This document shows positions 49,401 through 52,400 of a stretch of DNA of 64,000 bases, in pieces. A program made the position numbers. Each line of letters begins with the position of its first letter. Within the stretch, counting starts at the first letter, position 1. The stretch comes from a virus (Duplodnaviria > Heunggongvirae > Uroviricota > Caudoviricetes), in the IMG/VR virus record IMGVR_UViG_2939521961_000004; one strand, given 5' to 3'.

Positions 49401-52400
49401 TCTGCAAAAATTGTGGTCACCTTGTAACTGAAGATGAGTCCTCGCAGTTTGATGACGAAATCGTTGACAATATCTTCGGTGCACTCACCAGAGACTTTCT
49501 GAAGTAAAGGCGCATACCGCTTAGTTACCGCTCTGATAATTCTTACCTGTCCGGCAATGGCGCTGATATCAATATAAAGCGCCATCGCTGTTTCTTTGCT
49601 GATCCCTGGATGCCTTCCATTCTGATGTTTGACTTCGCCCACTGAGAAATCCTCTGTTTCCCCTTAACGCCGGGGTAGCGGAACAAAAAACCTGCTGCAT
49701 AGTTAAACGTAATCCCCGCCGTCATGTTCATACGCCTCAGGCTGGCTACTTAACCCCTGACCACTGCCGGGTAACTCGAAGTATTGCCCTGCGTTCTGTG
49801 GGGCGGGGTGGGTTTATGGATACAATTTACAAATTAAAATTTAACTGGTCAACATGTTTATTATTAAATTTGTAATTGCGGGCTGTTGCATCAGTCCCAA
49901 AATGGGACTACTATACAGTTATGAAGATTATCTCAGTTAAAACACTCAGGGATTTTTGGGCGGAGAATCCTGATGCAGAACAACCGCTAAGGGCATGGGT
50001 GGATGAGGCGGCAAAAGCTGACTGGAAAAGCCCAGCAGACATTAAGGCACAATACCGAACGGCCAGTATATTGAAAAACCGGCGCGTGGTATTCAACATA
50101 AAAGGTAATCATTACCGTTTAATTGTTGCAATTGCGTATCAGCGAGGATGGGTATTTGTTAAATTCATCGGAAACCACAAGGAATACGATGCTATTGATG
50201 CTGATACCATCGAACTGGAGTAAGCATGAACATCAAACCTATTCGTACAGAGCAAGATTATGAAGCCGCGTTGCGTGCTGTTGAACCCATGTTCGACAAT
50301 GAGCCCGAAATTGACACGCCTGAGGGGGATTTTTTTGAGGTGATGTGTTTGCTAATAGAGGAATATGAAAAAAAACATTATCCCATTGAGCCACCATCCC
50401 CAATTGAAGCTATAAGATTTCGCATGGAACAGCAGGGGCTGACTGTGAAAGATTTGGAACCCGCAATTGGGAAAAAAAATCGGGTTTATGAGGTGTTGAA
50501 TGGTACCAGAAGCCTTACGTTACCAATGATTCGCCGTCTTCATAATCAATTTGGTATCCCCCTGGAAAGCCTGGTTGGATTATAAAATCTGCTAGTCATT
50601 TGCCTGATGCTCGTTCCAGAAAAGGAATGCATCAGGCAGTTTTGTTTTTCTGCCGCAGTAACTCTTCAAGTTTCCGTTTATAGAAATCGCGTTTTTGCTC
50701 CATATCACGAATGATCTGCTCTGCGTCGCTTTGAGGTAACTCATCTAAAAGCGATATGATTTTTCGTTGTTGTTCTGTAAGTTGCGGTTGGTTGTCATTA
50801 CTGGATACAGCCATTTTATCGCCGAGAGTTTCTTCTTCCATAAAGAACCAATGGACGGGATGTTGTGAGAGCTCTGCTAATTTTTCCAGTTTATCCATTC
50901 TTGGCATCACGCCTTTCAACCAACCTTGCACGGATTGGGGTTTTACACCAAGACGTCTTCCCAGCTCTGACTGGTTTATATTCAATTCCTGCAACACCTG
51001 CTGAAGGCGTTTTACAAAGATCATCACCACCCCTCGTAAACTAGTTCCGCGATCCTACAGAAAAAATTGATAAGTGGCATTACAAATAGAAGTTGAAATT
51101 TAAATTTAAATTTGTAATTATCGGTGTCATCGTAAAGTTCGGAGGGAAACATGCAAAAAAGTACTCAAGTGAAAATCCTGTCAATAATGAGCCAATCAGA
51201 ATTAGGGCGTCGTCTTGGTAAAACACCGCAAACCATAAGTGGGTGGTTTAAAAAACGAGTGCCAGCGGAGGAGGTTATACCAGCATGTGAGGCGCTTGAC
51301 TGGGGAGTAACTCCGCATGAATTGCGCCCTGATAAATACCCTAATCCAACCGATGGTTTACCTGTTGAGTATCAGGCTAACGCACAAGCAGCGGCGGGAG
51401 TTGATTCATGAAAATCAAGCATGAGCACATCCGCATGGCGATGAATGCGTGGCTGCTTTATCCGAGGGTAGGGCGCAAAAAAATCGCTGATGATATAGCG
51501 ACAGCATATTTTGAGCTTGAAATGACTTATCCACCAATGCATGACACCTCTACGACAGAGGGTATTGGATTGAACATACAAAATATTTTTCGCTGGCTTG
51601 AAAAGGATACGCCTGATGCTGTTGAAAAAATTCAGGCACTAATTCCAGCTATCCTGACTGTTCTTCCGCGTGAACTGCGTTATCACCTCAGTATTTTTGA
51701 CACTGTTGAGCGCCGTGCATTACTGGCGGCCCAGGAAGCGTTGAGCACGGCAATTGATGCGCATGATGATGCAGTCCAGGCAGTTTACCGGAAAGCGTAT
51801 TTCAGCGACGGCGGGTCATCCGGCGAGTCTGTTGTGGTGCATTGATATTTATGCCAGACCCCTGCTGATTCTGTTGATTGGGGAATCACAGAATATCACC
51901 AGAGGATGGTTCGTCACAAGATGAGGCAATTATGGCCGCATTACCATACATGCAACTGTACATAGCTGATTACCTGGCTGACACCATGCATTTGTCCGCA
52001 GAGGAGCACGGTGCGTATTTGTTGCTGATGTTCAATTACTGGCAAACAGGGAAACCAATACCTAAAAACAGGCTGGCAAAAATTTCCCGTCTGACTAACG
52101 AGCGATGGGCTGATGTGGAACCATCCTTGCGGGAGTTTTTTTGCGATAACAGCGATGAATGGGTGCATCTTCGGATTGAGGAAGATCTGGCATCAGTCAG
52201 GGAAAAATTGACCAAAAAATCAGCCGCCGGAAAAGCATCTGTTCAGGCCAGAAGAAGCAGAAAGGAAGCATATGTTCAAACAAAACAAGAGAGAGATTTA
52301 ACAGGTGTTCAAACAAATGTTGGTGTTGTGTTTGAACATGACGCAAACACAAAAGCAACTAATAAAGATACAGATCTAAAAGAATTAAACCCCACACATA

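What the first reader, a model, noticed from the sequence alone, without database searches (positions are those of the whole stretch)
49921..50585. HigB-HigA module at the same immunity-adjacent slot in prophage B, on the opposite strand
Prophage B has a different TA family (HigBA) in the position where prophage A has ParE/antitoxin, convergent with its cI. Two unrelated TA modules at the same slot in co-resident prophages point to an exchangeable cargo site, probably for superinfection exclusion or addiction.
Basis: partly seen in the sequence, partly recalled or inferred. Interest (0 to 1): 0.7.

Follow-up and report, generated by a model that had tools for sequence, protein, structure and literature searches.

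The report
Prophage HigB–HigA toxin–antitoxin cassette
An intact but ordinary HigB/HigA toxin–antitoxin gene pair, already annotated in RefSeq, sits between the repressor gene and the left operator of a defective lambdoid prophage in an EHEC-type E. coli; this is the known variable cargo slot where the neighbouring prophage carries a ParE module and phage lambda carries rexAB.

Summary
49921-50223 encodes a 100-aa HigB toxin (Pfam PF09907, E 4.8e-33). 50226-50585 encodes a 119-aa HigA antitoxin with a C-terminal HTH. Both align over nearly their full length with E. coli K-12 HigB/HigA (PDB 5IFG). The pair lies between the DicA/PaaR-like repressor (50632-51030, convergent) and an OL/PL-like region (49824-49875) whose TTACAAAT half-sites recur at OR. 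Prophage A carries PaaA/ParE (homologous to CP-933P PaaA2-ParE2) in the equivalent position, in the repressor operon. In 11 related heteroimmune prophages sampled from other genomes, the slot is empty in 8, holds a PaaA/ParE-type pair in 2 and HigBA in 1. Stx phages with H-19B immunity carry a HigB–HigA–SecB-like triad there. [quoted passage not shown] The cassette (about 49886-50585) is self-contained. It has a promoter with a conserved GTCCCAnnnTGGGAC palindrome in its spacer, an apparently leaderless higB and an SD-coupled higA. It is tightly linked to one immunity type (148 of 5426 E. coli genomes). Relatives occur on chromosomes and on D6-like phage-plasmids. It is not PD-lambda-2 or a TAC, because the peptidase domain, the third gene and the chaperone are all absent. 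Verdict: a new member of a known kind, of low-to-moderate interest. Its role (exclusion or addiction) is inferred, not tested.

The parts
49657..49819 (-). Conserved early-left (PL) leader segment shared with heteroimmune DicB-type lambdoid prophages. It marks the left boundary of the immunity-specific cassette.
   Evidence: Homology with thousands of other E. coli prophages stops at about 49814-49820. One search found 3030 genomes matching part of 49700-50700, and 9 phage records match only about 49711-49815. The near-identical segment lies downstream of parE in prophage A.
49824..49852 (-). PL-like sigma-70 promoter (-35 TTGACC, 17-nt spacer, -10 TAAATT) pointing left, away from higB.
   Evidence: Consensus scan, 9 of 12 matches. 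It overlaps the left operator half-site. This is an inference, not mapped experimentally.
49827..49875 (.). OL-like operator pair: TTACAAAT (49827-49834) and its inverted copy ATTTGTAA (49868-75), with internal AAATTTAA repeats.
   Evidence: The same inverted pair occurs at 51080-51117 between the repressor and the cro-like gene. Four of the five TTACAAAT sites in the 64-kb window are these two inverted pairs.
49886..49914 (+). Putative higBA promoter: -35 TTGCAT (49886-49891), 17-nt spacer, -10 TACTAT (49909-49914). The ATG lies 6 nt after the -10, so the mRNA is probably leaderless.
   Evidence: The arrangement is conserved upstream of higB homologues in plasmids, other Enterobacterales and Betaproteobacteria. 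Some have a consensus TTGACA at -35, and none has an SD except one plasmid with an 18-nt insert.
49894..49908 (.). Perfect palindrome GTCCCAAAATGGGAC, the candidate HigA operator inside the promoter spacer.
   Evidence: Unique in the window. Conserved at -27 from the ATG in different genomic contexts, with a second copy at about -57 in non-prophage enterobacterial loci.
49921..50223 (+). higB, a 100-aa RelE-fold toxin of Pfam family PF09907.
50226..50585 (+). higA, a 119-aa antitoxin with an N-terminal toxin-binding region and a C-terminal Xre-type HTH. A GGAG Shine-Dalgarno at 50217-50220 lies inside the end of higB.
50600..50650 (+). Hairpin (dG -23.5 kcal/mol, z -3.6) followed by a U-rich tract. 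It is an intrinsic-terminator-like element for higBA and overlaps the repressor's stop codon.
   Evidence: (I16). It is absent downstream of higA in other contexts, and the simple terminator scan did not call it.
50632..51030 (-). Immunity repressor (DicA/PaaR-like, 132 aa). It has an HTH only and no S24 peptidase domain.
   Evidence: Pfam HTH_3; NCBIfam DicA match below its cut-off; PHROG transcriptional regulator/repressor families.
51079..51118 (.). OR-like operators between the repressor and the cro-like gene.
51151..51845 (+). ydaS-like (Cro analogue, 51151-51411) and ydaT-like (CII analogue, 51408-51845) genes.
   Evidence: Pfam YdaS/YdaT. Functional assignment follows PMC8630535.
1080..1987 (-). 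Prophage A counterpart: a paaR-like repressor (1586-1987), paaA (1367-1558) and parE (1080-1367) in one operon.
   Evidence: Found in 507 of 5426 E. coli genomes.

Best explanation
The locus is an intact, self-contained type II HigB/HigA toxin-antitoxin cassette of about 0.7 kb (49886-50585). It lies in the variable cargo locus between the immunity repressor gene and OL/PL of a DicB/Qin-type, probably defective, lambdoid prophage.

Shown by sequence analysis:
- The toxin and antitoxin both belong to the K-12-type HigBA family.
- The gene order is toxin first.
- The family-invariant toxin residues are retained.
- The cassette has its own promoter, with a conserved palindrome in the spacer.
- An SD for higA lies inside higB.
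- The position relative to OL, the repressor and OR is as described.

Inferred mechanism:
- higBA is transcribed from its own promoter as a leaderless or near-leaderless mRNA, so little HigB and more HigA is made.
- A HigA dimer binds HigB through its N-terminal part and binds the GTCCCAnnnTGGGAC operator through its HTH, which autorepresses the operon.
- When HigA is depleted, free HigB arrests translation and growth. Depletion could follow proteolysis, a host-expression shut-off by an infecting phage, or loss of the locus. By homology with K-12 HigB the toxin acts by ribosome-dependent mRNA cleavage. An RNase III-inhibiting mode, as reported for the family member SehA, is the alternative.

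Inferred biological role:
- The most likely role is abortive-infection or exclusion cargo that protects the lysogen against other phages, as for lambda RexAB, HigBAC and PD-lambda-2, which occupy the same locus or share the toxin family.
- Addiction that stabilises the immunity region would be an inseparable side effect.

Confidence in the identity and anatomy is about 0.95. Confidence in the defence role is about 0.45.
For: Family assignment rests, and invariant residues. The short two-gene form is the norm: a HigA-like ORF of about 116-153 aa follows HigB in nearly all of 80 loci across phyla, and the 120 closest HigA homologues are 113-134 aa, mostly 119.

The promoter, palindrome and leaderless architecture are conserved in unrelated contexts. 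Homology between contexts ends at the -35 element and at the higA stop codon.

OL and OR motifs are, the PL-like promoter, and the terminator hairpin.

Slot variability is shown. A HigB-family triad sits between cI and N in H-19B-immunity Stx phages.

Literature: HigBAC lies in the variable defence locus downstream of cI and defends against lambda-vir by sensing gpV (10.1101/2024.02.24.581848). PD-lambda-2, which has a HigB-like component, defends against lambda-vir (PMC9519451). K-12 HigB is a translation-dependent mRNA interferase (PMC2814082).
Against: There is no experimental datum for this cassette: no test of toxicity, neutralisation, operator binding, transcription start or phage protection.

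The two defence systems that share the toxin family each need extra parts that are absent here. PD-lambda-2 needs a peptidase fusion plus component C. HigBAC needs a ChAD extension plus a SecB-like chaperone, which acts as the phage sensor. A sensing route for the two-gene form is therefore unknown.

SehA, a PF09907 member, was reported not to be an RNase itself (PMC12817084), so the biochemical activity is not certain.

The putative -35 is weak (3 of 6), and the prophage copy keeps only one of the two palindromes seen elsewhere. No NCBIfam model matched. The prophage integrase is IS-disrupted, so selection may act on the host rather than on a phage.
Confidence: 0.5

Rival explanations
1. The cassette is purely an addiction or stabilisation module. 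HigBA kills or arrests cells that lose or rearrange the immunity region, which locks the repressor allele and the defective prophage into the chromosome. It has no role against other phages.
For: paaA2-parE2 occupies the equivalent slot of CP-933P. It is addictive and was proposed to limit rearrangements of the immunity region (PMC8630535). HigBA is tightly linked to one repressor type: 148 genomes carry each, at least 134 have the contiguous arrangement, and all 23 viral contigs have both. The prophage is defective yet retained.
Against: Linkage over 50 bp is expected without any selection. Other occupants of the locus (RexAB, HigBAC) are exclusion or defence systems. No stabilisation test exists for this pair.
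Confidence: 0.3
2. The cassette is a selfish passenger. It is a mobile 0.7-kb TA unit that landed in a permissive, non-essential intergenic locus and persists only because it is hard to lose. It gives no benefit to the prophage or the host.
For: Close relatives sit in unrelated places. Examples are ordinary chromosomal neighbourhoods in Lelliottia, Leclercia, Kosakonia and Silvania, small plasmids, and D6-like phage-plasmids. Eight of 11 sampled related prophages do without any cargo in the slot.
Against: TA and defence modules recur at exactly this locus in several immunity types. The cassette is conserved at 99-100% identity in 136 genomes.
Confidence: 0.15
3. The cassette is a degraded remnant of a three-component defence system (PD-lambda-2 or the HigBAC TAC) that lost its peptidase or ChAD extension and its third gene.
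For: The best PADLOC hits are PD-Lambda-2_A and the first 119 of 402 positions of PD-Lambda-2_B. HigB and HigA are 43% identical to the first two proteins of the Stx-phage triad.
Against: The two-gene form with a HigA of about 119 aa is the dominant, widely conserved architecture. HigA ends cleanly after the HTH, and homologues at 74-99% identity in the top 120 have essentially the same length. No remnant ORF fits in the 46 nt before the repressor gene. No PD-Lambda-2_C or chaperone hit was found among the neighbours.
Confidence: 0.03
4. The cassette is regulatory wiring into the lysis-lysogeny switch. Repressor bound at OL, 10 bp upstream of the higB -35, controls higBA. Alternatively, derepressed higBA transcription reads convergently into the repressor gene and lowers immunity under stress.
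For: PL and PhigB lie back to back, with 33 bp between their -35 hexamers, and the right OL half-site lies in that interval. The prophage copy has lost the distal HigA operator exactly where OL begins. The genes are convergent. The repressor lacks an autocleavage domain.
Against: A strong hairpin with a U-tract separates higA from the repressor gene. Nothing shows that the repressor binds or affects PhigB. The geometry may simply reflect the insertion point.
Confidence: 0.07

Closest known systems
E. coli K-12 HigB/HigA (YgjN/YgjM; PDB 5IFG, 5YCL, 6KML)
   Same: Same Pfam toxin family (PF09907). The gene order is toxin first. The antitoxin has an N-terminal toxin-binding part and a C-terminal Xre HTH. 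Both proteins align over nearly their full length. The conserved residues F60/N61/G64/N65/R68/H88/Y91/D92 are retained.
   Different: Similarity to the K-12 proteins is distant (E 3e-7 and 3e-9). HigA is 119 aa rather than 138 aa. The location is a prophage immunity region rather than a chromosomal locus. higB is apparently leaderless, whereas putative SD sequences are indicated for the K-12 TA operon promoter regions (PMC2814082).
HigBAC toxin-antitoxin-chaperone system of lambdoid prophages (E. coli NT1F31; Mets et al., bioRxiv 10.1101/2024.02.24.581848), and the HigB/HigA-218aa/SecB-like triad between cI and N of H-19B-immunity Stx phages
   Same: A HigB-family toxin and a HigA-core antitoxin (43% identity each to the Stx-phage triad). 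The genomic slot is the same: downstream of the repressor and before PL/N.
   Different: The window has no ChAD extension on HigA and no chaperone gene. The orientation is inverted (convergent with the repressor instead of co-directional), and the cassette has its own promoter. Identity of the Stx-phage triad to the NT1F31 proteins was not tested.
PD-lambda-2 (Vassallo et al. 2022, PMC9519451)
   Same: HigB gives the best PADLOC match to PD-Lambda-2_A (1e-40). HigA matches the N-terminal 119 positions of PD-Lambda-2_B.
   Different: PD-lambda-2B carries a C-terminal ImmA/IrrE peptidase and is itself the toxic component, neutralised by A. A third gene, C, is required for defence. Neither the peptidase nor C is present here.
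PaaR2-PaaA2-ParE2 of CP-933P/Sp12 (PMC8630535), and its homologue in prophage A of this window
   Same: A TA module embedded between the CI-analogue repressor and PL in a YdaS/YdaT-type immunity region. The toxin belongs to the RelE/ParE superfamily.
   Different: The ParE-type toxin has a DNA-binding-less antitoxin (PaaA) and is co-transcribed with, and regulated by, the phage repressor. HigBA is inverted, carries its own HTH antitoxin, and has its own operator and promoter.
Lambda RexAB
   Same: Positional analogue: cargo between cI and PL that is expressed in the lysogen.
   Different: No sequence or mechanistic relationship. RexAB is a membrane-depolarising exclusion system in the cI operon.
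Salmonella SehA/SehB (PMC12817084)
   Same: A HigB-like toxin and HigA-like antitoxin. Residues needed for SehA toxicity (H88, Y91) correspond to H86 and Y89 here.
   Different: SehA was reported to inhibit RNase III rather than cleave RNA. Whether that applies here is unknown. No direct sequence comparison with SehA was made.

Membership tests
HigBA type II toxin-antitoxin (PF09907 / K-12 type) | Toxin with the HigB_toxin (RelE-fold) domain | tested here: met
   Pfam PF09907 at 113.7 bits against a cut-off of 27. Aligns with 5IFG_A over residues 1-93.
HigBA type II toxin-antitoxin (PF09907 / K-12 type) | Family-invariant putative active-site and structural residues retained | tested here: met
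   L9, F58, N59, G62, N63, R66, H86 and Y89 are invariant, and D90 is 94% conserved, in the 86-sequence alignment. All are present in this HigB.
HigBA type II toxin-antitoxin (PF09907 / K-12 type) | Reversed gene order (toxin upstream) with tightly adjacent genes | tested here: met
   The higB stop is at 50221-50223 and the higA ATG at 50226. A GGAG Shine-Dalgarno lies at 50217-50220.
HigBA type II toxin-antitoxin (PF09907 / K-12 type) | Antitoxin with an Xre-type HTH, homologous to HigA | tested here: met
   HTH_3 at residues 63-115. 5IFG_B HigA aligns over residues 6-112 at 3e-9. Homologues are named HigA by several sources.
HigBA type II toxin-antitoxin (PF09907 / K-12 type) | Palindromic operator in its own promoter (autoregulation) | tested here: inconclusive
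   GTCCCAAAATGGGAC lies in the promoter spacer, is conserved across contexts and is unique in the window. Binding was not tested.
HigBA type II toxin-antitoxin (PF09907 / K-12 type) | Toxin arrests growth and the cognate antitoxin neutralises it | not testable with these tools
   Requires expression assays.
PD-lambda-2 defence system | Component B is a HigA-like HTH fused to a C-terminal ImmA/IrrE peptidase (about 400 aa) | tested here: not met
   HigA is 119 aa and covers only positions 1-119 of the 402-position PD-Lambda-2_B profile.
PD-lambda-2 defence system | Third component C (related to a P4 antitoxin), required for defence | tested here: not met
   Only 46 nt separate higA from the repressor gene. 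No PD-Lambda-2_C hit was found among the neighbouring proteins.
Toxin-antitoxin-chaperone (TAC; HigBAC/CmdTAC) | SecB-like chaperone gene downstream, and a ChAD extension on the antitoxin | tested here: not met
   There is no third gene, and HigA ends right after the HTH. The Stx-phage triad, by contrast, has a 218-aa HigA and a protein matching PD-T4-9_C.
Cargo of the variable locus between the repressor and PL of lambdoid phages | Located between the repressor gene and an OL/PL region that shares operator motifs with OR | tested here: met
   TTACAAAT/ATTTGTAA pairs lie at 49827-49875 and 51080-51117. A PL-like promoter is present. The conserved leader begins at 49819.
Cargo of the variable locus between the repressor and PL of lambdoid phages | Content of the locus differs among otherwise related phages | tested here: met
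   Of 11 sampled prophages, the slot is empty in 8, holds PaaA/ParE-type modules in 2 and HigBA in 1. H-19B-type phages hold a HigB triad.
PaaR-PaaA-ParE three-component system (prophage A module) | PaaA2-family antitoxin plus a ParE2-like toxin downstream of a CI-analogue regulator | tested here: met
   PF21217 PaaA2 at 5.4e-19 and PF05016. 5CW7 ParE2 at 1.5e-35. Gene order 1586-1987, 1367-1558, 1080-1367 on the minus strand.

The most novel reading that the evidence does not exclude
The inverted HigBA cassette may be functionally wired into the prophage switch rather than being passive cargo. Its promoter abuts the right OL half-site and has lost the distal HigA operator exactly there. It is divergent from PL and convergent with a repressor that has no RecA-cleavable domain. 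Repressor occupancy of OL could therefore set higBA expression. Conversely, stress-induced HigA loss could derepress convergent transcription and lower repressor expression. The second route would give an SOS-independent induction or abortive trigger.
Probability: 0.07. Interest if true: 0.65.

Novelty: new member of a known kind. Interest (0 to 1): 0.27.

Why it matters
The finding adds one more documented occupant to the variable repressor-PL locus of lambdoid prophages: a minimal, inverted, self-regulated HigBA. It also shows that one EHEC-type genome carries TA-type cargo at this locus in at least three prophages: PaaA-ParE, HigBA, and a HigB-HigA-chaperone triad in its H-19B-immunity prophage.

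The natural set of HigB-family modules with zero, one or two accessory parts at the same locus would be a convenient system for asking two questions. What do the accessory sensor parts add? Can a bare HigBA defend against phages at all?

Otherwise the locus is well explained by existing knowledge and is already annotated.

Tried and rejected
1. PD-lambda-2 membership was suggested by strong PADLOC hits. I rejected it because the peptidase domain and component C are absent.
2. The idea that HigA is a truncated fusion was rejected. The closest 120 homologues are 113-134 aa, mostly 119. In 80 loci across phyla, only one has a 401-aa fusion.
3. The alternative TTG start at 49876, which would give a 115-aa HigB, was rejected. 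The upstream extension is not conserved, and all homologues start at the MK/MR-I-I position.
4. NCBIfam gave no hit for either protein, so it was uninformative.
5. A megablast of the region against sequenced phages found only the roughly 100-nt PL leader. A protein-level search was needed to find the Stx-phage relatives.
6. I looked for operator co-variation in the SCU-171 variant. The outer OL half-sites change symmetrically (CTACAAAT/ATTTGTAG) but OR does not change, so I drew no conclusion.
7. I searched the literature for this specific EHEC prophage HigBA and found no dedicated paper.
8. The simple terminator scan found nothing, but folding shows a strong hairpin with a U-tract after higA.
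9. Base composition shows no distinct signature for the cassette compared with the repressor region.
10. I did not run structure prediction, because the sequence matches to solved HigB/HigA structures were already nearly full-length.
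Full report
**Origin of the window.** The window is 99.7-99.97% identical, apart from some indels, to the chromosome of E. coli E2865 (NZ_AP018808). The finding's region is 100% identical to that record and to other O26/O103/O45/O111 EHEC-type genomes. The window holds two tandem lambdoid prophages next to yccA. Prophage B has an integrase interrupted by an IS3-family element, so it is probably defective.

**The observation.** The finding's coordinates are exact. An ATG at 49921 opens a 100-codon ORF ending at 50223. Two bases later, an ATG at 50226 opens a 119-codon ORF ending at 50585.
- ORF1 matches Pfam HigB_toxin PF09907 at 113.7 bits (cut-off 27, E 4.8e-33). It also matches PHROG 5734 and PADLOC PD-Lambda-2_A. 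It aligns with E. coli K-12 HigB (5IFG, 5YCL) over residues 1-93.
- ORF2 has an HTH_3 domain at residues 63-115. It aligns with K-12 HigA (5IFG_B) over residues 6-112.
- I aligned 86 distinct HigB sequences drawn from the fetched loci plus K-12 HigB. L9, F58, N59, G62, N63, R66, H86 and Y89 are invariant and D90 is 94% conserved; all are present here. H86 and Y89 correspond to K-12 H88 and Y91. These are also the positions whose mutation abolishes toxicity of the Salmonella family member SehA (PMC12817084).
- The toxin therefore looks intact. RefSeq already annotates the pair as a HigB family toxin plus an HTH protein, or as a HigA family antitoxin in newer records.

**Anatomy of the cassette.** I compared the upstream region with the same gene pair in a second prophage, a 97-kb plasmid and a 44-kb plasmid. 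I then extended the comparison to chromosomal homologues in other Enterobacterales and in Betaproteobacteria.
- All share a conserved unit: a -35 hexamer (TTGCAT here at 49886-49891; TTGACA in some relatives), a 17-nt spacer and a -10 hexamer (TACTAT, 49909-49914). The ATG follows only 5-7 nt later, with no Shine-Dalgarno.
- The spacer consists almost entirely of the palindrome (A/G)GTCCCAnnnTGGGACT, at 49894-49908 here. This palindrome is unique in the 64-kb window.
- This is the classic layout of an autorepressed TA promoter. It implies a leaderless or near-leaderless higB mRNA, which is an inference not mapped experimentally.
- higA has a GGAG 5 nt upstream of its ATG, inside the end of higB. 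That arrangement would favour an excess of antitoxin.
- Most non-prophage enterobacterial copies have a second palindrome at about -57. The prophage copy lacks it.
- Homology between contexts runs from the -35 hexamer to the higA stop codon and no further. The mobile unit is therefore about 0.7 kb.
- In the prophage, higA is followed by a strong hairpin (50600-50639, -23.5 kcal/mol, z -3.6) and a U-tract. The hairpin overlaps the stop codon of the convergent repressor gene.

**The slot.**
- Immediately left of the higB promoter lies an inverted pair of TTACAAAT half-sites (49827-49834 and 49868-49875) with internal AAATTTAA repeats. The same pair lies between the repressor and the cro-like gene at 51080-51117. 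Four of the five TTACAAAT sites in the window are these two pairs.
- A leftward sigma-70-like promoter (49852 to 49824) overlaps the left half-site.
- Left of that, from about 49819 to 49657, is a segment shared at 87-97% identity with DicB/Rac-type prophages of other immunities. One search found 3030 genomes matching part of 49700-50700, with up to 6 places per genome. Homology with those prophages stops at about 49814-49820.
- The same leader, ending at the same ...GGGGTGGGT, lies downstream of parE in prophage A. There it is followed by prophage A's own operator motif (AAAACTGTT/AACAGTTTT), which recurs in A's repressor-cro intergenic region.
- Both prophages therefore have the order: PL leader, OL/PL, TA module, repressor, OR, ydaS (Cro analogue), ydaT (CII analogue).
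- In prophage A the module is PaaA (PF21217) plus ParE (PF05016; 1.5e-35 to ParE2 of 5CW7). It is co-directional with, and immediately downstream of, the repressor. This is the PaaR-PaaA-ParE arrangement studied in CP-933P (PMC8630535).
- In prophage B the module is inverted and carries its own promoter, operator and DNA-binding antitoxin.

**How exchangeable is the slot?** I sampled 11 related prophages from other genomes that share the left flank.
- Eight have nothing between the repressor and the PL leader.
- Two have a PaaA/ParE-type pair: the O157:H7 CP-933P-like prophage and an O104:H4 prophage.
- One (SCU-171) has the same HigBA with the same repressor type but a different left arm.
- At protein level, Stx phages with H-19B immunity (H-19B itself, Stx2a_WGPS9 and many Stx1a phages) carry three genes between cI and N, co-directional with cI. 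These are a HigB (95 aa, 43% identical), a 218-aa HigA-like protein (43% identical over the core) and a 134-aa protein matching PADLOC PD-T4-9_C, the SecB-like chaperone of CmdTAC.
- That architecture matches the HigBAC toxin-antitoxin-chaperone system. [quoted passage not shown] They show that it defends against lambda-vir by sensing the tail protein gpV (bioRxiv 10.1101/2024.02.24.581848). I did not test sequence identity between the Stx-phage triad and the NT1F31 proteins.
- On shorter time scales the cassette is not free. The repressor-plus-cro segment of this immunity type occurs in 148 of 5426 complete E. coli genomes at 80% coverage or more. HigBA occurs in the same number. At least 134 genomes have the whole contiguous arrangement. 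All 23 viral contigs with a HigB at least 97% identical also encode the same repressor, ydaS and ydaT.
- For comparison, the prophage-A-type paaR-paaA-parE block is in 507 genomes and the HigB triad is in 88. Strain E2865 itself carries the triad elsewhere in its chromosome.

**What it is not.**
- The strongest defence-database hits are to PD-lambda-2. That system has a HigA-peptidase fusion of about 400 aa, which is itself the toxic part, and a required third gene (PMC9519451). Here HigA covers only profile positions 1-119 of 402. Only 46 nt separate it from the repressor gene, and none of the neighbours matches component C or a chaperone.
- It is not a decayed fusion. The closest 120 HigA homologues across Enterobacterales are 113-134 aa, mostly 119. 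In 80 loci spanning Proteobacteria, Bacteroidota, Chloroflexota, Cyanobacteria and others, HigB is followed within a few bases by an ORF of about 116-153 aa in nearly all. Only one locus has a 401-aa fusion.
- Close relatives sit in ordinary chromosomal neighbourhoods, on small plasmids and on D6-like phage-plasmids. The pair is therefore a generic mobile TA cassette that has landed in this prophage locus.

**Mechanism and role.**
- The identity, the anatomy and the position are shown by sequence analysis.
- It is inferred that HigA neutralises HigB and represses the promoter through the palindrome. It is also inferred that loss of HigA frees HigB to arrest translation. By homology with K-12 HigB the toxin would be a translation-dependent mRNA interferase (PMC2814082). 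The report that SehA inhibits RNase III instead (PMC12817084) leaves the biochemistry open.
- For the biological role I favour phage exclusion or abortive infection, at about 0.45. The other characterised occupants of this locus (RexAB, HigBAC), and PD-lambda-2, which shares the toxin family, all act that way. Against this, the relatives use accessory sensor parts that are missing here.
- A purely addictive, region-stabilising role, as proposed for paaA2-parE2, is the main rival at about 0.3.
- A selfish passenger is about 0.15, and regulatory wiring into the switch about 0.07.
- The wiring idea rests only on geometry. The -35 hexamers of PhigB and PL are separated by 33 bp, and the right OL half-site lies in that interval. 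The distal HigA operator is missing exactly where OL begins. The genes are convergent. The 132-aa repressor has no autocleavage domain.

**Verdict.** The module is already annotated, and the slot concept is in the literature. I found no paper on this particular two-gene, inverted HigBA. I classify it as a new member of a known kind, of low-to-moderate interest.

Noticed in passing
window 58147-58709 (-) and 8337-8492 (+): There is a second pair of TA modules at a second equivalent position. Prophage B has ParD (58452-58709) and ParE (58147-58446); prophage A has the type I toxin hokD (8337-8492). Each lies just upstream of the DUF968-rusA genes of its prophage. Each prophage therefore carries two TA modules at two matching slots.
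   Followed up: partly
L125 (NC_049923.1) 4001-5342; L126 (H-19B AF034975) 4001-5400; NZ_AP018808.1 1568308-1569649: Stx phages with H-19B immunity carry, between cI and N, a HigB (95 aa), a 218-aa HigA-like protein and a 134-aa protein matching the SecB-like chaperone profile PD-T4-9_C. This is a HigBAC-type TAC. It is unannotated in the original H-19B record. The same triad is present elsewhere in the genome nearly identical to this window, and in 88 of 5426 E. coli genomes.
   Followed up: partly
L008 (NZ_CP066033.1) 5001-5666; plasmid hits: higBA relatives at about 80% nucleotide identity (91-94% protein identity) sit on plasmids of roughly 90-97 kb that are 97% identical to phage D6 over 72% of the fetched flanking stretch, so they are D6-like phage-plasmids. 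Phage D6 itself does not appear to carry the pair. In this copy an 18-nt insert supplies an SD for higB.
   Followed up: partly
window 49886-49923 and loci L009-L047: The higB genes of this subfamily have the ATG only 5-7 nt after a conserved -10 hexamer and no SD, from Enterobacterales to Betaproteobacteria. This suggests that leaderless toxin mRNAs are a conserved design. The lambda cI and paaR2 mRNAs are also leaderless (PMC8630535).
   Followed up: partly
window 48602-48653 (-): A DicF sRNA gene (Rfam RF00039, 75 bits) lies between ydfC and dicB in prophage B's early-left operon.
   Followed up: no
window about 42889-45220: The prophage B integrase is split by an IS3-family element (RefSeq annotates two integrase pseudogene fragments around the IS). 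The prophage is probably unable to excise.
   Followed up: no
window 49301-49507 (+): An ECs_2282-family zinc-ribbon gene lies on the strand opposite to the early-left operon, between ydfC and the PL leader. It replaces the ydfA/ydfB genes found at this position in other prophages. It occurs with and without HigBA, so it is independent of the TA module.
   Followed up: partly
window 51151-51845 and 2096-2777: The genes that Pfam and PGAP label 'YdaS/YdaT toxin' are, according to PMC8630535, the Cro and CII analogues of these prophages and not a TA pair. The database names are misleading.
   Followed up: no
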